Position numbers and translations under genes: made by a program. From Escherichia coli (lineage in GTDB: Bacteria; Pseudomonadota; Gammaproteobacteria; Enterobacterales; Enterobacteriaceae), in assembly GCA_003321845.1 (NCBI GenBank), contig GCA_003321845.1_3917.1: a DNA stretch of 34,186 nt; one strand, written 5' to 3'. This document shows, piece by piece, positions 15,434 through 20,201 of this stretch. The first letter of the stretch is position 1. Each line of letters begins with the position of its first letter. A model generated the notes under the pieces. That model worked only from the letters and a program-made list of their open reading frames with translations. It was not told where the DNA came from and did not search any database.

Positions 15434-15634
15434 TTATTCAGAGTCTGTAGCAGTCTCTTCTTTCTTAACTTCGAACTTTGCATCAACAGCATCAAGAAGT
15501 GCATCCATAGACGCTTCTTGAATATCAATACCTGTTGCTACAGATAATCTGTCTGCAATTGCCATGATAGTATTCTGCATAAATTCTAGCTTCTTGTTAG
15601 CTTCATAAAGTTCTTTATAAACGGTCTCGCTCAT
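15434..15634 (-). CDS. Small hypothetical protein upstream of terL
   Basis: 66-aa ORF with GGAG 8-9 nt upstream of the ATG; too small for a typical small terminase. Confidence 0.45.
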   Translation of the reverse strand: MSETVYKELYEANKKLEFMQNTIMAIADRLSVATGIDIQEASMDALLDAVDAKFEVKKEETATDSE

Positions 15635-15670
15635 TATGTTTTCTCCAAATAATTAACCATGTTTCCCCTT

Positions 15671-15694
15671 AAAAAAGACGGTACAGAGACCGTC
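15671..15694 (-). terminator. Intrinsic terminator at the 3' end of the tRNA array
   Basis: Plus strand aaaaaa-gacggt-acagag-accgtc: a 6-bp stem followed by a U6 run when read on the minus strand, between tRNA-Cys and the packaging genes. Confidence 0.5.
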
Positions 15695-15856
15695 AAGGAG
15701 AAACCACAATGTACGTCAGAGACATACTGTATAAGTCTTCTTATAAAGTATAACTCTGTAAAAAAGCCCTGTCTAAAAATACTCTTCGGTAGCGAAAGGA
15801 AGAATACTTATAGCAGGGCATTATTATTATTTTAATTGAGAGAGAGTAAAATAACT

Positions 15857-15933
15857 TGGAGAATCCGAAGGGACTCGAACCCTTATAAACCTGTTTTGCA
15901 GACAGGCACATAGCCATTTCTGTCACGGATTCA
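15857..15933 (-). tRNA. tRNA-Cys (anticodon GCA)
   Basis: Hand-folded: encoded CCA, perfect 7-bp acceptor (gaatccg/cggattc), T-arm aaggg-actcgaa-ccctt, anticodon stem cctgt/acagg, loop reads CU-GCA-AA. Confidence 0.75.
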
Positions 15934-15936
15934 AAT

Positions 15937-16029
15937 TGGAGGAAGATACCAGACTTGAACTGGTACACCGATTTCTCAGCTACTGGCAGTTTAGCAAACT
16001 GCTCCCTTACCTTTTAGGGTTAATCTTCC
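15937..16029 (-). tRNA. tRNA-Ser (anticodon GCT), class II
   Basis: Encoded CCA, acceptor ggaagat/atcttcc, T-arm accag-acttgaa-ctggt, ~21-nt variable arm, anticodon stem gcagt/actgc, loop UU-GCU-AA. Confidence 0.75.
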
Positions 16030-16030
16030 A

Positions 16031-16765
16031 TTATTTCTGTAATGCGTTCTTCATTTCTGGTGTTGCAATAGTATCAATTACACCAGTTTTACAAGCATCA
16101 TCAAACCAGTCTGGTAAGATACCTGCTAAGAACCCATTGATATTCGTTTTAAGGTACTCTGCAATAAGAGCAGCTTCTTCTTCAATCATCTGCACAACTT
16201 CATCTGCATAAGCTGTAATCTTCGAAATACCTTCATTAATCTTACTAACAGCTTGGTTAGCTAAATCAGAAATAGTATCAAGACCTTTGTCAATAGCGTC
16301 TTGTAAGTCACTTAATACATCATTAACACCATCTAGAGCGCTGTTAATCGTATCCATAGCTTTTTGACCATACTCTGTAGCAACACCCATAATACCACTA
16401 AACGGTGTACAGCCAACTTGCTCTCCTGCTGCACCCATAACATTAGAATAACCTTTTGCTACCTGCATACGTGAGGAAAACTCATCAATGGACTTTTGAC
16501 CGTAATCCGTCAGCGTTTTGGTAGTTGATGTAGTGCTTGTCAGACTCGTTGTAAAGCTGTTAAGCAGAACTGTTGTAAGTCCAGCAGCAACAAGTTTATC
16601 TTTTATTGTAGGGTCTGTTACAGAGCTAATAGAGCTTACAAGTGATGTAGAGGCAGCTACGGTTCCACCGAGAACTGCTGCACCAGTAATAAGGGGATTA
16701 GAGAACCCTTTACCGGTTTTTAAGAGATTAAAAATCTCCTTACCTTGTTCTGTCATCTCTTTCAT
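16031..16765 (-). CDS. Hypothetical protein encoded inside the tRNA array (possible membrane or coiled-coil protein)
   Basis: ORF track gives 16031..16828 with a GTG start lying inside the tRNA-Phe anticodon arm. The first ATG (MKEMTEQ, at 16765) has AAGGTG 5 nt upstream and is the likelier start. Hydrophobic Gly/Ala segment followed by Ser/Thr-rich and acidic helical regions. Confidence 0.5.
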   Translation of the reverse strand: MKEMTEQGKEIFNLLKTGKGFSNPLITGAAVLGGTVAASTSLVSSISSVTDPTIKDKLVAAGLTTVLLNSFTTSLTSTTSTTKTLTDYGQKSIDEFSSRMQVAKGYSNVMGAAGEQVGCTPFSGIMGVATEYGQKAMDTINSALDGVNDVLSDLQDAIDKGLDTISDLANQAVSKINEGISKITAYADEVVQMIEEEAALIAEYLKTNINGFLAGILPDWFDDACKTGVIDTIATPEMKNALQK

Positions 16766-16781
16766 TAAGCACCTTTGAAAT

Positions 16782-16858
16782 TGGTAGTCCAGTGGGATTT
16801 GAACCCTCTTCTCATGTTTTTCAGACACGCGCTTTAACCATATAAGCTACTTGGACTA
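16782..16858 (-). tRNA. tRNA-Phe (anticodon GAA), slightly atypical
   Basis: Perfect acceptor tagtcca/tggacta, T-loop atttgaa with one T-stem mismatch, anticodon loop CU-GAA-AA. 3' CCA register is ambiguous. Confidence 0.55.
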
Positions 16859-16863
16859 TAAAT

Positions 16864-16939
16864 TGGGGTGACCTACGGGATTTGAACCCGTATAGACCAT
16901 GTTCACAGCATGGGTCATTACCATTTATGATAAGGCCAC
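16864..16939 (-). tRNA. tRNA-His (anticodon GTG)
   Basis: Encoded CCA, acceptor with one G-U pair, T-arm acggg-atttgaa-cccgt, anticodon stem ccatg/catgg, loop CU-GUG-AA. Confidence 0.7.
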
Positions 16940-16970
16940 ATTTAAGGACTCTCGTAAGAACCCTTAGAAG

Positions 16971-17046
16971 TGGCAGCGGCATAAGGATTTGAACCTTAAT
17001 AAGACAGCTTCAGAGACTGCTGCATTGCCAGTTATGCTATACCGCT
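16971..17046 (-). tRNA. tRNA-Gln (anticodon CTG)
   Basis: Encoded CCA, T-arm taagg-atttgaa-cctta, anticodon stem with two G-U pairs, loop CU-CUG-AA. Confidence 0.6.
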
Positions 17047-17051
17047 AAATT

Positions 17052-17130
17052 TGGTACTCCATATCGGATTCGAACCGATACATAACACAGATTTTAAGTC
17101 TGGCCTCTCTGCCAATTGGAGTAATGGAGC
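17052..17130 (-). tRNA. tRNA with anticodon TAA (formally Leu) but short variable arm
   Basis: Encoded CCA, discriminator A, T-arm atcgg-attcgaa-ccgat, anticodon loop CU-UAA-AA. Variable region only ~7 nt, i.e. class-I geometry, unusual for a Leu anticodon. Confidence 0.5.
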
Positions 17131-17131
17131 A

Positions 17132-17206
17132 TGGTACTCACTAAAGGACTTGAACCTTTTTCTTCATCTTGTAAGGGTGGTGTTTTACCATATAAACTAA
17201 GCGAGT
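17132..17206 (-). tRNA. tRNA-Val (anticodon TAC), tentative
   Basis: Encoded CCA, acceptor actcact/agcgagt with one G-U, T-arm aaagg-acttgaa-ccttt. Anticodon stem is imperfect; loop reads CU-UAC-AA. Confidence 0.5.
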
Positions 17207-17302
17207 GTGAAAGAGGTCTGAAGTTGTGCCGCTAACTCAACTCCGTGGAATTTGTTACGGTCTTCAGTTGACTCAAAGCGGTCTTTCACTTGACCTCTAA
17301 AT

Positions 17303-17378
17303 TGGTGCTCCCACAAGGATTCGAACCCTGATAAGTTGCTTACAAGGCAACCGTAATAGCCAATTATACGATAGGAGC
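17303..17378 (-). tRNA. tRNA-Thr (anticodon TGT)
   Basis: Encoded CCA, T-arm caagg-attcgaa-ccctg, perfect anticodon stem gttgc/gcaac, loop CU-UGU-AA. Confidence 0.75.
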
Positions 17379-17385
17379 ATTAATT

Positions 17386-17460
17386 TGGAGCATCCAGAGG
17401 GAATCGAACCCTCAACCTCAGTTTGGAAGACTGTAATTTTCCCGTTTAAACTATGGATGC
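17386..17460 (-). tRNA. tRNA-Gly (anticodon TCC)
   Basis: Encoded CCA, perfect acceptor gcatcca/tggatgc, T-arm gaggg-aatcgaa-ccctc, loop CU-UCC-AA. Confidence 0.7.
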
Positions 17461-17466
17461 ACTAAT

Positions 17467-17542
17467 TGGTGGAGTCACTGGGAATTGAACCCAGTTCCCA
17501 AGTTTGCAAAACTCGAATTTTAACCATATAAACTATGACCCC
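17467..17542 (-). tRNA. tRNA-Ala (anticodon TGC)
   Basis: Encoded CCA, acceptor ggagtca/tgacccc including a G-U pair, T-arm ctggg-aattgaa-cccag, loop UU-UGC-AA. Confidence 0.7.
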
Positions 17543-17548
17543 ATTGTT

Positions 17549-17624
17549 TGGTACAGGTGGAGGGAATTGAACCCATCGTCTTACTGATTAAGAGTCAGCC
17601 GCATAACCATTTTGCTACACCTGC
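17549..17624 (-). tRNA. tRNA-Lys (anticodon CTT)
   Basis: Encoded CCA, acceptor acaggtg/cacctgc, T-loop aattgaa with a 3-bp effective T-stem (same backbone as the Lys-TTT gene), loop CU-CUU-AA. Confidence 0.6.
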
Positions 17625-17631
17625 ATTAATT

Positions 17632-17709
17632 TGGTAGGAGACAAGGGATTCGAACCCTCAAACACCAACTTCTAAGGATGGTAGGTTTACCAATTACCGT
17701 CAATCTCCC
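17632..17709 (-). tRNA. tRNA with anticodon TAG (formally Leu) but short variable arm
   Basis: Encoded CCA, discriminator A, T-arm aaggg-attcgaa-ccctc, anticodon loop CU-UAG-AA with one A-A mismatch in the stem; class-I length (~78 nt). Confidence 0.5.
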
Positions 17710-17961
17710 ATTAAATCTTTTTAGAGAACTTCTAAGAACCTAAGCAACAAGGTTCCACAACAAGCTGTAATAACCTTAGAAGCCCTCTAAAAAGACCTAA
17801 TTTGGTCTTTGCATAGTCTTGTTTAATCCGGTGACTAGAACCTTTGGAGAGCTTGATATTATCTCTTCTCCGTGACACCTACTAGGTGCTTTATCAGTGT
17901 ACGACAATACACGAGGGATAAACCGAAAATGCGAGCAAGCATGGACGGTGTAAATCTTATT

Positions 17962-18052
17962 AGGCGGTAAGTAAAGGAGTCGAACCCTCACCGTATCTCT
18001 ACAGTGGCAACAGTTTTCAAGACTGTTTGGCTGCCATTAGCCGCTACCTACC
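17962..18052 (-). tRNA. tRNA-Ser (anticodon TGA), class II
   Basis: Perfect 6-bp anticodon stem aacagt/actgtt with loop CU-UGA-AA, ~20-nt variable arm, acceptor ggtaagt/acctacc, discriminator G. T-stem has two G-U pairs; CCA not fully encoded. Confidence 0.55.
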
Positions 18053-18065
18053 CCTAATAAGATTT

Positions 18066-18148
18066 TGGCATGGGACGGAGGAGTTGAACCCCTTTGAAAC
18101 GGTTTTGGAGGCCGTTGCTCATGCCTTAGAGTCTTAACATCGTCCCAT
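18066..18148 (-). tRNA. tRNA, probably Trp (anticodon CCA), atypical length
   Basis: Encoded CCA, perfect acceptor atgggac/gtcccat, T-loop agttgaa, anticodon hairpin acggc/accgt with loop CU-CCA-AA. About 7 extra nt in the D-arm region. Confidence 0.45.
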
Positions 18149-18291
18149 ACTGTAATTCGAAGCTTACCGTATTTTCACAACACTGTAAAGCCCCTTCTCA
18201 GATTATTTACATGTTCTGGAAAACATGAGATACAGACCACCTCCTTACACGGAGACCCGATAAGGTCGTCTAAGCAATCTGCTAACTAAAT

Positions 18292-18373
18292 TGGTCGAGG
18301 CGGCAGGACTCGAACCCGCATACTCCACTTACTCGGTTAACGGCGGTTTAGAAGACCGCTGAGATACGCCCCG
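18292..18373 (-). tRNA. tRNA-like element (anticodon-like loop TCT, Arg?) with degenerate D-arm
   Basis: Encoded CCA, acceptor cgaggcg/cgccccg, T-arm gcagg-actcgaa-cccgc, perfect hairpin gcggt-ttagaag-accgc giving CU-UCU-AA. Only ~7 nt where the D-arm should be and ~23 nt between the T-arm and that hairpin. Confidence 0.4.
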
Positions 18374-18667
18374 TAATTATCTTTAAAGACTCTCTGAGAA
18401 AGCCCTTAAAGATGCCCACATTATTAATCATACCGTGGGCTAGTACGCCAAATTCTTTGATGAGGGGTTGGAAGACCTCACTGGTGTTTAGCCTATCAAG
18501 CTACTGCCAGAAAAACATTGTCGTTTGCATTTATTTTAAATTTACAAAATAGACGCTACGCAACGAAAACTATTCAGAATATGTACAACAAATTTCCCCA
18601 CATTGTGTTACGTCTAACGCTCATGTCTTGGTGTTTGAATTATACATATGCTGAATCATTTTCAGTT

Positions 18668-18696
18668 ACTATAAAGTAGTCACATCTCAATGTCAA
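18668..18696 (-). promoter_or_regulatory. Candidate sigma70-type promoter internal to the tRNA array
   Basis: Minus strand reads TTGACA, 17 nt, TATAGT (plus-strand tgtcaa at ~18691 and actata at ~18668); it would drive the lower half of the array. Confidence 0.45.
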
Positions 18697-18711
18697 CAAC
18701 TTTATTGAAAT

Positions 18712-18785
18712 TGGTTGTAGGTGAGGGTATCGAACCCTCTTCTAACGGTTATCAGCCGTTTGCATTACCATTTATGCTAACCCAC
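18712..18785 (-). tRNA. tRNA-Ile (anticodon GAT)
   Basis: Encoded CCA, T-arm gaggg-tatcgaa-ccctc, perfect anticodon stem aacgg/ccgtt, loop CU-GAU-AA. Confidence 0.75.
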
Positions 18786-18788
18786 AAT

Positions 18789-18865
18789 TGGAGGTTCAGA
18801 TGGGAATCGAACCCACATCCATAGGGCTTATGAAACCCCTGCATTACCTTATCTGCGACTGAACC
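18789..18865 (-). tRNA. tRNA-Met (anticodon CAT; could be elongator Met or Ile2)
   Basis: Encoded CCA, perfect acceptor ggttcag/ctgaacc, T-arm atggg-aatcgaa-cccac, loop UU-CAU-AA. Confidence 0.6.
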
Positions 18866-18943
18866 ATAATAAGTACCCTAGTTAGAGAAACTATTGAGTG
18901 GGTGTTTCCAGCCGCGCAGGTGTTTCTCAGTTAAGGGTGAATT

Positions 18944-19019
18944 TGGTAGAAGTGGAGGGATTCGAACCCATCGCCTGTCAGATTAAAAGTCTGCCGCATC
19001 ACCATTCTGCTACACTTCC
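18944..19019 (-). tRNA. tRNA-Lys (anticodon TTT)
   Basis: Encoded CCA, acceptor agaagtg/cacttcc, T-loop attcgaa, anticodon stem caga/tctg, loop CU-UUU-AA. Confidence 0.65.
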
Positions 19020-19024
19020 ATTAA

Positions 19025-19167
19025 ATTATCTTTGTAGATAAGCTACCCAGACTTGCTTAAGGTCTGTAGCGATGTGCCTTTTTGGGTTTAAATCTAGAAT
19101 TTACCCTTTCACCCTTTGTGGTCGCATACTCACAGGTAAGCTTAATAACTTATCTACAAAGATAATT
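19025..19167. repeat. Perfect 18-bp inverted repeat (attatctttgtagataag / cttatctacaaagataat) enclosing ~107 nt
   Basis: Read directly from the sequence; arms at ~19025-19042 and ~19150-19167 within a tRNA-free stretch of the array. Predicts a long stem-closed structured RNA or a DNA cruciform. Confidence 0.6.
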
Positions 19168-19216
19168 ACCAGACCGTTGTTTATCATCTTAAGTGCTACC
19201 ATTACACCAACTCGAC

Positions 19217-19245
19217 ATCTGCCGAGTGAAGGAATCGAACCTTCG
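19217..19245 (-). other. Orphan tRNA T-arm-like hairpin (tRNA fragment or tRNA-like module)
   Basis: gaagg-aatcgaa-ccttc is a perfect T-arm mimic with an acceptor-like 7-mer beside it, but no matching 5' acceptor strand, D-arm or anticodon arm could be found. Confidence 0.3.
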
Positions 19246-19477
19246 CCTTTTCTTTACCGGAGAAATAGATTGTTTAAAGTTTGCTGTAAACGGTCTTCTG
19301 TAAATTTGTTGAGCCAGACCAAGTTTTAAATTTTTTCAAAATTAAATTGGCTTGAAAATTTCATACGTACTTGCTGAATTTGGTCTTCTGCTCCTTTAAA
19401 GAATACTCGTAAGAACTCTTTAAGGGAGGGGCTAAATAGCCCTCTCAAAACATCATTTTGAAATACTTATTATAATT

Positions 19478-19555
19478 TGGCGGTTACGAAGGGATTTGAA
19501 CCCTCATCATCTCCCGTGACAGGGGAGTATTTTAACCAGTTAAACTACATAACCT
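19478..19555 (-). tRNA. tRNA-Asp (anticodon GTC)
   Basis: Encoded CCA, T-arm aaggg-atttgaa-ccctc, perfect anticodon stem ctccc/gggag, loop CU-GUC-AC. Confidence 0.75.
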
Positions 19556-19560
19556 TTATT

Positions 19561-19648
19561 TGGTGTGCCGTGTAGGAGTCGAACCTACCGAGTCTCAATG
19601 ACAAGGGATTTACAGTCCCCACCGCTACCATCTACGGGATAACGACAC
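19561..19648 (-). tRNA. tRNA-Tyr (anticodon GTA), class II
   Basis: Encoded CCA, T-arm gtagg-agtcgaa-cctac, ~15-nt variable arm, anticodon stem aggga/tcccc, loop CU-GUA-AA. Confidence 0.7.
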
Positions 19649-19717
19649 ATTTAATTTCTATTCAGGCTAAGGACTTGCACCTTACAAATCGGTGAGCAAT
19701 CGCTTCTCTCCTAAATT

Positions 19718-19794
19718 TGGCGGTTAGTCAGGGATTCGAACCCTGTGCCATTCGCTTAACAGGCGACCGCACATACCTTATGTGCTTCCTAACC
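19718..19794 (-). tRNA. tRNA-Asn (anticodon GTT)
   Basis: Encoded CCA, T-arm caggg-attcgaa-ccctg, anticodon stem tcgc/gcga, loop CU-GUU-AA. Confidence 0.7.
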
Positions 19795-19871
19795 TTAATA
19801 CATTGCCAGACCGTGTTTTTTCTTTTATCCGCAAAAAGTATTTTGTTGCTGAATACGGTCTTCTGCAAAAT

Positions 19872-19948
19872 TGGAGGCGGGTGCAGGAGTCGAACCTACC
19901 GATACCATGCTAATGAGACATGTGAGACGCCCTTTCTCTATACCCGCA
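19872..19948 (-). tRNA. tRNA-Met (anticodon CAT), possible initiator
   Basis: Encoded CCA, T-arm gcagg-agtcgaa-cctac, D-stem gaga/tctc, anticodon loop with CAT. The 1:72 acceptor pair is mismatched, as in bacterial initiator tRNA. Confidence 0.55.
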
Positions 19949-20039
19949 ATTCTTAATGACCAGACCAAATCTCTTCTTTGTCCGATTTACCTTCAGATGA
20001 ATAAGATTAAGTTTGCTGCAATTGGTCTTCTGTCAAAAC

Positions 20040-20117
20040 TGGCGTTCCAGAAGGGATTTGAACCCTCAAATATCCACTTTGAAAGAGTGGCGACTTTACC
20101 GTTTTGTCTACTGGAAC
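20040..20117 (-). tRNA. tRNA-Glu (anticodon TTC)
   Basis: Encoded CCA, perfect acceptor gttccag/ctggaac, T-arm aaggg-atttgaa-ccctc, perfect anticodon stem ccact/agtgg, loop CU-UUC-AA. Confidence 0.75.
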
Positions 20118-20124
20118 ATTAATT

Positions 20125-20201
20125 TGGTCTCTGTTGGAGGACTTGAACCTCCGGCCTTACCGCCCCAAACGGAACGCTCTACCAAGCTGAGCTAAACAGA
20201 G
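20125..20201 (-). tRNA. tRNA-Pro (anticodon TGG)
   Basis: Encoded CCA, perfect acceptor ctctgtt/aacagag, perfect T-arm ggagg-acttgaa-cctcc, anticodon loop UU-UGG-GG. Confidence 0.65.

What the first reader, a model, noticed from the sequence alone, without database searches (positions are those of the whole stretch)
19025..20040. tRNA array spacers are themselves structured repeats (CCAGACC ... GGTCTTCTG modules; 18-bp perfect inverted repeat; orphan T-arm)
At least four inter-tRNA spacers share conserved ends (plus strand ...taat..CCAGACC(a/g) at one side and ttgctg.a.t.GGTCTTCTG at the other) that can pair (AGACC/GGUCU) to close a 45-60-nt AT-rich loop. A perfect 18-bp inverted repeat (~19025-19042 / ~19150-19167) encloses 107 nt, followed by an isolated T-arm-like hairpin (~19228-19244) with no other tRNA parts. 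A similar stem-closed spacer sits at ~17207-17302 (agaggtc ... gacctct). These look like processing cassettes, small RNAs or decayed tRNA/mobile-element remnants.
Basis: seen in the sequence. Interest (0 to 1): 0.5.

Follow-up and report, generated by a model that had tools for sequence, protein, structure and literature searches.

The report
Phage Y-RNA-like genes between tRNAs
The "spacers" in this phage's tRNA array are a conserved family of small structured RNA genes that travels with a neighbouring Ro60-like RNA-binding protein gene in very diverse phages, so they are probably that protein's undescribed RNA partners.

Summary
Four repeats with the ends CCAGACC … TTGCTG-N5-GGTCTTCTG lie at 19166-19303, 19311-19393, 19803-19868 and 19957-20035 (4 exact copies, 0.04 expected). 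The 22-bp inverted repeat at 19024-19167 is also real.

Read on the tRNA (minus) strand, each repeat is an RNA with four parts:
- a 4-bp outer helix;
- a small internal loop;
- a 7-bp helix that covaries;
- an invariant single-stranded (U)UACAGCAA box, followed by a variable loop.

The "orphan T-arm" belongs to a complete tRNA-like domain, in the circularly permuted order seen in bacterial YrlA Y RNAs (V, T, closed acceptor stem, D).

The gene just upstream (20367-21782) encodes a DUF2828 protein whose predicted fold matches Ro60. A covariance model built only from non-Felix phages recovers the window's modules. In 75 metagenomic loci carrying a homolog of this gene it gave 54 hits. All 54 were on the gene's strand, and 47 lay within 500 nt of the gene.

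Best reading: a new family of Y-RNA-like ncRNAs, released by tRNA processing and bound by the Ro60-like protein. Binding and expression are inferred, not shown.

The short form also resembles Dictyostelium Class I RNAs, at scores below the Rfam threshold.

The parts
20367..21782 (-). Gene for a 471-aa Ro60-like protein (Pfam DUF2828 + DUF7788, vWA MIDAS motif DxSxS); the proposed protein partner of the RNAs
   Evidence: Pfam E 1e-30 and 1e-44. AlphaFold2 pLDDT 89. The top 11 Foldseek PDB hits are all Ro60/TROVE structures over the full length, E about 1e-8, TM 0.55-0.65. D279/S281/S283 are invariant.
20228..20348 (-). Two sigma70-like promoters (TTGACA-17/18-TAATAT/TAAAGT, 10 of 12 matches) between the Ro60-like gene and tRNA-Pro; the likely start of the tRNA + module transcript
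   Evidence: These are consensus matches only; the number of sites in the region does not exceed the shuffles.
19957..20035 (-). Module M4, short form. P0 is UGAC/GUCA, the internal loop is AGA/G, P1 is AGACCAA/UUGGUCU, the box is UUGCAGCAA, and the loop is variable
   Evidence: CM R1 gives 29.6 bits, E 1e-3. Rfam Class I gives 16.5 bits.
19803..19868 (-). Module M3, short form. P0 is UUGC/GCAA, P1 is AGACCGU/ACGGUCU, and the box is AUUCAGCAA
   Evidence: CM R1 gives 36.3 bits, E 2.5e-5. Rfam Class I gives 24.0 bits.
19311..19393 (-). Module M2, short form. P0 is GAGC/GCUC, P1 is AGACCAA/UUGGUCU, and the box is AUUCAGCAA
   Evidence: CM R1 gives 32.2 bits, E 2.4e-4.
19166..19303 (-). Module M1, long form. 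P0 is UUAC/GUAA, P1 is AGACCGU/ACGGUCU and the box is UUACAGCAA. The loop holds a tRNA-like domain: V hairpin 19249-19265, T arm 19228-19244, closed acceptor stem 19210-19227, D arm 19193-19207
   Evidence: The minimum-free-energy fold gives exactly this layout. 98.9% of cells are paired, and the acceptor-like stem has 3 pairs with compensatory changes across three genera. The Rfam tRNA model scores 24.7 bits here and 30-31 bits in Sf14 and mistaenkt.
19024..19167 (-). A closing stem of about 22-28 bp encloses about 100 nt. The apical hairpin CAGACC-UUAAGCAA-GUCUGG (19047-19066) looks like a miniature module
   Evidence: The structure is kept in a second, divergent sequence type, with 9 pairs changed on both sides.
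17207..17302 (-). Val-Thr spacer. An extended hairpin that is almost invariant between Felixounavirus and Mooglevirus. It is not a member of the CAGCAA family
   Evidence: 29 predicted pairs with no variation. There is no R1 hit.
18944..20201 (-). Flanking tRNA genes: Pro, Glu, Met, Asn, Tyr, Asp and Lys. Processing of these tRNAs would free the modules from the polycistronic transcript

Best explanation
The repeated spacers are genes for a previously undescribed family of Y-RNA-like noncoding RNAs.

Biogenesis. They are transcribed on the minus strand together with the tRNAs, from promoters just downstream of the Ro60-like gene. They are set free when RNase P and the tRNA 3'-end nucleases excise the neighbouring tRNAs. 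Each RNA closes on itself through an outer helix P0, a small asymmetric internal loop, and helix P1. P1 always starts with a G-C pair. It is followed by an invariant single-stranded box, (U)UACAGCAA.

Proposed function. This stem-plus-box is the likely recognition site for the adjacent DUF2828/Ro60-like protein. The variable loop is the effector part. In the long form (M1) the loop is a tRNA mimic of the YrlA type, which could engage tRNA-binding enzymes or nucleases. The resulting RNP probably acts in RNA surveillance or repair, or in counter-defence, during infection.

Shown: the repeats, the covarying structure, the Ro60-like fold, and the strict genomic linkage. Inferred: transcription, processing, direct binding and function.
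For: 1. The repeats are far beyond chance: 4 copies found, 0.04 expected.

2. Structure. P0 and P1 covary between the four copies. Across 23 modules from 8 phage lineages, 5 of the 6 P1 pairs change on both sides, and the first G-C pair is invariant in 23 of 23. That set was chosen by a descriptor that requires pairing.

3. M1 folds into V, T, closed acceptor stem and D arm. The acceptor-like stem has three different sequences in three genera, all of them paired. Homologous long modules in other phages hit Rfam YrlA at 36-41 bits, E 1e-5 to 1e-7.

4. The protein has a Ro60 fold.

5. Linkage. Modules lie next to the homologous gene in Yersinia, Vibrio, Aeromonas, Cronobacter, Sinorhizobium, Mycobacterium, Listeria and Staphylococcus phages and in metagenomic contigs.

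6. Independent model. CM R1 was built without any Felix-like sequence. It finds M3, M2 and M4 at E 2.5e-5 to 1e-3, and nothing else in the 34-kb window below E 0.4.

7. Systematic test. In 75 IMG/VR loci carrying a homolog, R1 gave 54 hits at E <= 0.05. All 54 were on the gene's strand, 47 were within 500 nt of the gene, and 42 loci had at least one hit.

8. The Ounavirinae relatives that lack the gene at the syntenic position (Wc4-1, Erwinia BoyaciRG1) lack the modules.

9. Miniature modules end 9-14 nt before the start codon of the protein gene in several phages. This fits autoregulation through the same binding site.

10. A preprint reports that the orthologous Bas63 gp130 is Ro60-like and counters the Ppl defence. 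It guessed that Y RNAs hide among the tRNA genes.
Against: - There is no expression, end-mapping or binding data for any of these RNAs.
- The canonical Ro60-binding motif of known Y RNAs (GGUCCGA, or GNCGAA in YrlA) is absent.
- M1 in the window gives no Rfam YrlA hit even at E <= 10.
- 33 of the 75 metagenomic loci gave no hit. The model covers only the short form and ran with default filters, so this is a lower bound.
- Locus L141 has the gene but no module was found within 6 kb.
- ESCO49 has lost M1 and M2, so not every copy is essential.
- MFE z-scores of the single modules are unremarkable, -0.4 to -2.0.
Confidence: 0.78

Rival explanations
1. The modules are only cis-acting processing or stability cassettes for the polycistronic tRNA precursor. 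They space and fold the transcript so that RNase P and RNase E cut properly, and they have no life of their own.
For: In the window they sit between tRNAs, begin 3-6 nt after a CCA end and stop about 8-12 nt before the next tRNA. Other conserved hairpins also occur in the array, for example 17207-17302.
Against: The same modules occur with no adjacent tRNA. In Staphylococcus 6ec they lie between the Ro-like gene and an exonuclease gene, in Mycobacterium Faith1 after the gene, and in Listeria LP-124 in front of it. A processing spacer does not explain the invariant CAGCAA box across phyla or the tRNA-mimic insert. Most tRNA junctions in this array are only 1-9 nt long and need no cassette.
Confidence: 0.08
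2. They are chiefly regulatory decoys or operators for the Ro60-like gene. The protein binds them, or the mRNA leader copy, to set its own level, and there is no effector role.
For: Miniature modules abut the Shine-Dalgarno sequence or start codon of the gene in several phages: L142 5952-5991, L144 5953-5992, L137 9962-10009, and further IMG/VR loci with gaps of 9-14 nt.
Against: The window's own gene leader has no such module. Titration alone does not explain the long forms with their conserved tRNA-like domain, or arrays of up to 7 or more copies.
Confidence: 0.08
3. They are decayed tRNA genes or remnants of miniature mobile elements with terminal inverted repeats.
For: Their size is similar to a tRNA. 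M1 holds tRNA-like arms. The ends are inverted repeats. The tRNA array is rich in insertions, deletions and homing-endonuclease genes in relatives.
Against: The order T arm, closed acceptor stem, D arm cannot arise by decay of a tRNA gene. It is preserved with compensatory changes. The stems covary while the box stays invariant across phyla, and the modules track one protein gene and its strand in 54 of 54 hits. No target-site duplications or transposase-type features were seen.
Confidence: 0.03
4. They are DNA-level signals, either promoters or protein-binding sites, on one of the strands.
For: TTGCTG resembles a -35 hexamer.
Against: No -10 element lies at a workable spacing on either strand, and the promoter scan finds nothing inside the modules. 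Compensatory changes that keep base pairing indicate selection on RNA structure.
Confidence: 0.02

Closest known systems
Bacterial and phage Y RNAs bound by Ro60/Rsr: YrlA and YrlB of Salmonella, Yrn1 of Deinococcus, Yrl1 and Yrl2 of Thermus phage phiLo (Chen et al. 2014, PMC4201824; PMC12135203)
   Same: - They are encoded within about 2 kb of a Ro60-fold protein gene, on the same strand.
- The 5' and 3' ends pair into a stem with an internal loop.
- There is one long form with a tRNA-like domain in the order V-T-acceptor-D, plus shorter forms without it, like YrlA and YrlB.
- RNA-repair genes are often nearby: RtcB in Listeria LP-124, and Rnl/PNK in L139, L143 and L144.
   Different: - The protein is a DUF2828/DUF7788 family member. 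It matches no PDB Ro60 sequence and is related by fold only.
- The conserved RNA element is (U)UACAGCAA next to P1, not GGUCCGA or GNCGAA/CGAA.
- The Rfam YrlA score is below threshold: none for the window's M1, and 36-41 bits against a threshold of 69 for relatives.
- Here the RNAs are embedded in a tRNA array.
Class I RNAs of dictyostelid social amoebae (Rfam RF01414; Kjellin et al. 2021, PMC7919456)
   Same: - Both are about 50-65 nt long.
- A 6-bp stem joins the ends. Its sequence varies and covaries, but its first G is invariant and pairs with the C of a 3' CUG(U).
- AAG often precedes or begins the stem.
- The conserved box sits directly 3' of the 5' stem strand: CCUUACAGCAA in Class I, and N-N-UUACAGCAA in the phages.
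- The loop is AU-rich and variable.
- Genes occur in clusters.
- RF01414 is the only Rfam family that picks up the short modules. All of its hits in about 90 kb of phage DNA fall on modules.
   Different: - Scores of 15-27 bits are below the gathering score of 41.5.
- The spacing between the stem and CAGCAA is 1-2 nt shorter.
- The phage RNAs have an extra outer helix.
- Class I genes have a eukaryotic DUSE promoter and are reported only in Dictyostelia.
- Their known direct binder is the RRM protein CIBP, not a Ro60-like protein.
Stable non-tRNA RNAs within phage tRNA clusters (T4 species 1 and 2, rnaC and rnaD; from my own knowledge, not checked here)
   Same: Small stable RNAs co-transcribed with phage tRNAs and released by tRNA-processing enzymes.
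   Different: No sequence or structural similarity was tested. T4 has no DUF2828 gene to my knowledge.

Membership tests
Phage CAGCAA-box RNA family (defined here; CM R1 built from non-Felix phages) | Scores significantly with a covariance model built only from other phage lineages | tested here: met
   M3 36.3 bits, E 2.5e-5. M2 32.2 bits, E 2.4e-4. M4 29.6 bits, E 1e-3. The 5' part of M1 scores 24.1 bits, E 0.019. The search space was 238 kb on both strands.
Phage CAGCAA-box RNA family (defined here; CM R1 built from non-Felix phages) | Lies close to a DUF2828/Ro60-like gene and on the same strand | tested here: met
   The modules start 332 nt downstream of the gene's stop codon and extend to about 1.2 kb, on the same strand. 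The general rule holds in 54 of 54 hits for strand and 47 of 54 for distance within 500 nt.
YrlA-type Y RNA (Rfam RF02553; Chen et al. 2014) | tRNA-like domain in the order V hairpin, T arm, closed acceptor-like stem-loop, D arm | tested here: met
   M1: T arm GAAGG-UUCGAUU-CCUUC, acceptor-like stem ACUCGGC-AGAU-GUCGAGU, D arm GUGU-AAUGGUA-GCAC, V hairpin UUUCU-CCGGUAA-AGAAA. The MFE fold and the covariation agree.
YrlA-type Y RNA (Rfam RF02553; Chen et al. 2014) | GNCGAA(N)G motif near the 5' end, the presumed Rsr-binding site | tested here: not met
   The 5' region reads UUACAGAAGACCGUUUACAGCAA and has no CGAA.
YrlA-type Y RNA (Rfam RF02553; Chen et al. 2014) | Reaches the Rfam gathering score (69 bits) | tested here: not met
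   M1 gives no YrlA hit at E <= 10. Long modules of other phages score 35.8-40.9 bits.
YrlA-type Y RNA (Rfam RF02553; Chen et al. 2014) | Bound by a Ro60 ortholog in vivo | not testable with these tools
   Needs immunoprecipitation or gel shift.
Dictyostelium Class I RNA (Rfam RF01414) | Reaches the Rfam gathering score (41.5 bits) | tested here: not met
   Window: M3 24.0, M4 16.5, M1 14.7 bits, and M2 no hit. The best score in relatives is 27.4 bits.
Dictyostelium Class I RNA (Rfam RF01414) | A 6-bp terminal stem with an invariant 5' G, followed by the 11-nt CCUUACAGCAA motif, with the 3' end CUGU | tested here: inconclusive
   The stem, the invariant G-C pair, CAGCAA and a 3' C-U/A-G are present in all modules. 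However, the first 2-3 motif positions differ and the spacing is 1-2 nt shorter (alignments).
Dictyostelium Class I RNA (Rfam RF01414) | DUSE promoter about 60 nt upstream, with eukaryotic Pol III-type expression | tested here: not met
   This is a phage locus with sigma70-like promoters upstream of the array. No eukaryotic promoter context applies.
Ro60/TROVE protein family (for the neighbouring gene) | HEAT-repeat ring plus C-terminal vWA domain with a MIDAS motif, matching solved Ro60 structures | tested here: met
   The top 11 Foldseek hits are Ro60/Rsr/phiLo Ro60, at probability 1.00 over about 510-560 aligned columns. DxSxS is invariant. There is no sequence-level match to PDB Ro60, and Pfam assigns DUF2828/DUF7788 rather than TROVE.

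The most novel reading that the evidence does not exclude
The phage CAGCAA-box RNAs and the Class I RNAs of dictyostelid amoebae may be one RNA family, or two families shaped by the same kind of protein partner. DUF2828/Ro60-like proteins also occur in giant viruses and, from my memory of the Pfam description, in eukaryotes. They would then be the missing core partner of Class I RNAs.

One Class I pull-down protein of unknown function, DDB_G0281243, would be the first candidate. If true, an RNA class thought unique to Dictyostelia, with no known mechanism, would become a Y-RNA-like RNP shared with bacteriophages.
Probability: 0.25. Interest if true: 0.9.

Novelty: new variant of a known kind. 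Interest (0 to 1): 0.8.

Why it matters
DUF2828 proteins are encoded by at least 710 sequenced phage genomes of Gram-negative, Gram-positive and actinobacterial hosts. In the accessible literature, one member (Bas63 gp130) is reported to counter the Ppl defence system. No RNA partner has been described there.

This finding does four things:
- It assigns a defined, searchable RNA family to that protein family: a stem plus a CAGCAA box, in short and tRNA-mimic forms.
- It turns unannotated "spacers" into genes.
- It predicts an autoregulatory operator in some mRNA leaders.
- It gives concrete constructs for binding, structural and counter-defence experiments.

It also shows that Ro60-type RNPs in phages are much more widespread than the canonical TROVE/YrlA pairs known so far. 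And it offers a testable lead on the 20-year-old question of what Dictyostelium Class I RNAs do.

Tried and rejected
- Promoter reading. I looked by eye for -35/-10 pairs on both strands of each module and ran the consensus scan. Nothing lies inside the modules.
- Alternative grouping. Pairing GGUCUGG with the next CAGAAGACC, so that stems would bracket the tRNAs, leaves two orphan ends. It is also contradicted by the tRNA-like insert of M1 and by phages without tRNAs.
- Exact-motif scan of IMG/VR. It returned only Felix-like contigs plus chance single hits, so it added no diversity.
- Rfam YrlA or Y_RNA on M1: no hit.
- PDB sequence search with the protein: no hit.
- AlphaFold DB fold search, to look for a Dictyostelium homolog: the library was unavailable.
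- Papers not held: Avesson 2011, Aspegren 2004 and two Wolin-lab reviews. I therefore could not check the identity of DDB_G0281243, or whether the reviews mention these RNAs.
- MAFFT alignments of whole short modules mis-register the 3' strand in some rows. I therefore counted P1 pairs on end-anchored sequences (A5) and used the crude alignment only to seed the CM.
- My stem-plus-CAGCAA descriptor has a background of about 0.4 hits per 10 kb in shuffles. Single descriptor hits inside ORFs were ignored.
- Literature searches found no transcriptome data for Felix O1-like phages.
Full report
CONTEXT
The window is a Felix O1-like myovirus (Ounavirinae, Felixounavirus). Bases 15500-20400 are 95-96% identical to E. 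coli and Salmonella phages such as KEP3, JH2 and SP22. ARAGORN finds 22 tRNA genes, all on the minus strand, from 20201 down to 15857, and Rfam agrees. The finding therefore has to be read on the minus strand.

CHECK OF THE OBSERVATION
The composite motif TTGCTG-N5-GGTCTTCTG occurs exactly four times in 34 kb. The expected number is 0.04, and no shuffle reached four. Each copy is preceded by CCAGACC.

The inverted repeat is real: arms 19024-19045 and 19146-19167, 22 nt, 95% complementary. The T-arm hairpin at 19228-19244 is also real.

Two details need correcting. The four modules occupy three spacers, because Lys-Asp holds two. And the T-arm is not isolated.

All four modules are present, in the same order, in every Felixounavirus, Mooglevirus and Suspvirus locus I fetched, except where deletions removed them. 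About 250 phage records match these spacers.

ANATOMY ON THE RNA STRAND
Every module reads 5'-NNNC AGA AGACCRN (N)UU(A/U/G)CAGCAA … N'Y'GGUCU G GN'N'N'-3'. Three layers of pairing emerge.
- P1, 7 bp. It is AGACCGU/ACGGUCU in M1 and M3 and AGACCAA/UUGGUCU in M2 and M4, so two positions are compensated between copies.
- P0, the outer helix, 4 bp. It is UUAC/GUAA in M1, GAGC/GCUC in M2, UUGC/GCAA in M3 (UUAC/GUAA in Felix O1) and UGAC/GUCA in M4.
- An asymmetric internal loop between P0 and P1, with AGA on the 5' side and G on the 3' side.

ViennaRNA recovers P0 and P1 for M2-M4, and P1 for M1. The loops differ greatly between phages, while the ends and the box stay fixed.

M1 IS A tRNA MIMIC, NOT A tRNA REMNANT
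The loop of M1 folds, in the unconstrained minimum-free-energy structure, into four hairpins:
- a V hairpin;
- a canonical T arm (GAAGG-UUCGAUU-CCUUC);
- a 7-bp stem closed by a tetraloop (ACUCGGC-AGAU-GUCGAGU);
- after UG, a D arm (GUGU-AAUGGUA-GCAC).

Ten sequences from three genera keep 98.9% of cells paired. The acceptor-like stem has three unrelated sequences (ACUCGGC, ACACGUU, ACCCUUC), all of them paired, giving 3 pairs changed on both sides. Sliding the partners drops pairing to 44-50%.

The order V-T-closed acceptor-D is exactly the layout described for bacterial YrlA Y RNAs. A decaying tRNA gene cannot produce it.

THE NEIGHBOURING GENE
The gene at 20367-21782 lies immediately upstream of the array, on the same strand. 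It encodes a 471-aa protein with Pfam DUF2828 and DUF7788 domains. It has no sequence match in the PDB.

An AlphaFold2 model built from 57 homologs has a mean pLDDT of 89. Its eleven best Foldseek PDB matches are all Ro60: Xenopus Ro60, human Ro60 complexes, Deinococcus Rsr and Thermus phage phiLo Ro60. The matches run over the full length, at E about 1e-8 and TM 0.55-0.65. Isolated vWA domains follow far behind.

A preprint independently reports that the ortholog Bas63 gp130 resembles Ro60 and counters the Ppl defence. It speculates that "some tRNA genes are possibly Y RNAs" but identifies none.

THE LINKAGE IS GENERAL
A simple descriptor (a 6-bp stem ending 3-5 nt before CAGCAA) finds arrays of such modules right next to the homologous gene in many phages:
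- Yersinia P778;
- Vibrio phi-pp2;
- three unrelated metagenomic phages (L138, L139, L140) and L143;
- Mycobacterium Faith1, Listeria LP-124 and Staphylococcus 6ec;
- Cronobacter S13, Aeromonas LAh_6 and Sinorhizobium phiM7.

Protein identity to the window ranges from 53% down to 29%. The stems differ completely between lineages but always pair. The first pair is G-C in 23 of 23 modules, and the box is invariant. That set was selected for pairing, so its location is the independent evidence.

Several arrays again contain one or two long forms with T, closed-acceptor and D arms. Rfam's YrlA model hits them at 35.8-40.9 bits, E 1e-5 to 1e-7, below the gathering score of 69.

Two Ounavirinae relatives, Pectobacterium Wc4-1 and Erwinia BoyaciRG1, lack the gene in the fetched region around their tRNA arrays. 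They also lack the modules.

AN INDEPENDENT MODEL
I built covariance model R1 from 25 short modules, none from a Felix-like phage. In 238 kb it finds the following:
- M3 at 36.3 bits, E 2.5e-5;
- M2 at 32.2 bits, E 2.4e-4;
- M4 at 29.6 bits, E 1e-3;
- the 5' part of M1 at E 0.019;
- nothing else in the window below E 0.4.

I then fetched 80 IMG/VR loci through the protein alone and searched the 75 that are not Felix-like, 641 kb on both strands. R1 gave 54 hits at E <= 0.05. All 54 are on the strand of the gene, and 47 lie within 500 nt of it (23 upstream, 31 downstream). They fall in 42 loci. This test does not depend on my eye or on the descriptor.

LEADER COPIES
In several phages a miniature module ends 9-14 nt before the start codon of the protein gene, or overlaps its ribosome-binding site. 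Examples are L142, L144, phi-pp2, phiM7 and further IMG/VR loci. This is what one expects if the protein recognises stem-plus-box and represses its own translation. It is an inference. The window's own leader has a promoter embedded in an inverted repeat instead.

THE OTHER ELEMENTS IN THE FINDING
The inverted repeat at 19024-19167 is a conserved long-stem RNA. Some relatives carry a different sequence of the same length at this place. That sequence folds the same way, with 9 pairs changed on both sides. Its apical hairpin, CAGACC-UUAAGCAA-GUCUGG, looks like a degenerate module. Its function is unknown.

The Val-Thr spacer at 17207-17302 is an extended hairpin that is nearly invariant even in Mooglevirus. 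It has no CAGCAA box and gives no R1 hit.

HOW IT MOST LIKELY WORKS
- Transcription (inferred). Two strong sigma70-like promoters lie between the gene and tRNA-Pro, and no promoter-like site lies inside the modules.
- Release (inferred). The modules begin a few bases after a CCA end and stop about 8-12 nt before the next tRNA. Excision of the tRNAs would therefore leave them as free RNAs, with P0 protecting the ends.
- Partner (inferred). The Ro60 fold, the linkage and the leader copies all point to the protein.
- Role (speculative). Possible roles are RNA quality control or repair, or counter-defence, with the tRNA-mimic form addressing tRNA-binding enzymes. Supporting context is the frequent neighbourhood of RNA ligase, PNK or RtcB genes and the reported Ppl phenotype.

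COMPARISON WITH WHAT IS KNOWN
Y RNAs next to canonical TROVE Ro60 genes are known in bacteria and in some phages: Bxz1/ET08-type mycobacteriophages, CcrColossus, Bacillus phage G and Thermus phiLo. All are described with a GNCGAA/CGAA motif.

The present RNAs share the architecture and the genomic logic. They differ in having another conserved box and a protein family that sequence methods do not call TROVE. No Rfam family covers them, and I found no paper describing them.

THE CLASS I RESEMBLANCE
The only Rfam family that reacts to the short modules is RF01414, Dictyostelium Class I RNA. It scores 14.7-24.0 bits in the window and up to 27.4 bits elsewhere. All its hits in about 90 kb of phage DNA fall on modules.

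The published definition of Class I RNAs has these features: 42-65 nt, a 6-bp covarying terminal stem with an invariant 5' G paired to the C of a 3' CUGU, the motif CCUUACAGCAA directly after the 5' stem strand, and a variable AU-rich loop. The phage RNAs fit this closely, apart from 1-2 nt of spacing and the extra outer helix.

The scores are below threshold, and the eukaryotic promoter context does not apply, so I do not file the modules as Class I RNAs. Whether the likeness reflects a shared DUF2828-type partner is open. DUF2828 homologs are reported from mimivirus-like sequences. One of the four proteins pulled down with a Class I RNA, DDB_G0281243, has no known function. I could not test this.

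VERDICT
The spacers are best explained as a new, widespread family of Y-RNA-like genes tied to a Ro60-like phage protein.

Noticed in passing
window 18292-18373 (-) and 18060-18146 (-): Two tRNA-like elements that ARAGORN does not call. The first has an acceptor stem, a T arm and an anticodon-like hairpin with UCU, but no clear D stem. It scores only as a tmRNA-type tRNA-like domain (RF00023, 22.1 bits, E 5.5e-6). The orthologous place is annotated tRNA-Arg(TCT) in relatives. The second scores 23 bits with the tRNA-Sec model.
   Followed up: partly
window 18375-18769 (-); L135 1020-1204; L130 1005-1191: Sub-threshold tmRNA and permuted-tmRNA matches lie in the 660-nt gene-free gap between tRNA-Ser and tRNA-Ile: 15.7-25.9 bits in the window, and up to 36.2 bits in phage mistaenkt. 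Small tmRNA-like tRNA-domain hits also occur in the tRNA arrays of L138 (12213-12288, 31.6 bits) and L140.
   Followed up: no
window 16941-16970, 18382-18411, 19396-19425: A three-copy family of hairpins of about 30 nt (TTTAAGGACTCTCGTAAGAACCCTTAGAAG-like, each a near-perfect palindrome) is scattered through the tRNA array. It is distinct from the CAGCAA modules.
   Followed up: no
window 19649-19717 (Tyr-Asn spacer): This 69-nt spacer holds a degenerate T-arm-like stretch (GGUGCAAGUCC on the minus strand). The spacer is absent in phage JLBYU32, where tRNA-Tyr and tRNA-Asn are 8 nt apart. That looks like a true tRNA remnant, unlike the modules.
   Followed up: partly
window 21810-21860 (-), upstream of the Ro60-like gene: A sigma70-like promoter (TTGACA-18-TAAAGT) is embedded in an inverted repeat, GGTGTTGACAGACT…AGTCTGTCACACC. 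This is a possible operator for the Ro60-like gene.
   Followed up: no
L142 5952-5991, L144 5953-5992, L137 9962-10009, L150 2896-2930, L162 1761-1798, L165 2856-2893: Miniature stem-plus-CAGCAA hairpins sit directly in front of, or over, the ribosome-binding site of the Ro60-like gene in several unrelated phages. This suggests translational autoregulation.
   Followed up: partly
L139 16225-19138; L143 4279-5391; L144 1725-2774; L146 5815-7026: RNA-repair genes (T4-type RNA ligases, PNK/phosphatase, RtcB) lie within a few kb of the Ro60-like gene in several phages. This echoes the bacterial rsr-rtcBA operon.
   Followed up: no
L148 (Cronobacter phage S13) 4896-5138: Two annotated "tRNAs" of 121 and 113 nt carry an insert of about 40 nt in the anticodon region. 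The insert contains …GUUUGUAUUCAGCA…, and the two genes sit directly upstream of a long CAGCAA module.
   Followed up: no
L134 (Escherichia phage ESCO49) 1501-1695: A natural deletion removes most of M1, all of M2 and tRNA-Asp, and a second one removes tRNA-Glu. M3, M4 and the long-stem element are kept, so individual modules are dispensable.
   Followed up: partly
window 16031-16828 (-): A 265-aa ORF interrupts the tRNA array between tRNA-Ser(GCT) and tRNA-Phe. Relatives carry hypothetical, holin or HNH-endonuclease genes at various array positions, so the array is a hotspot for insertions.
   Followed up: no
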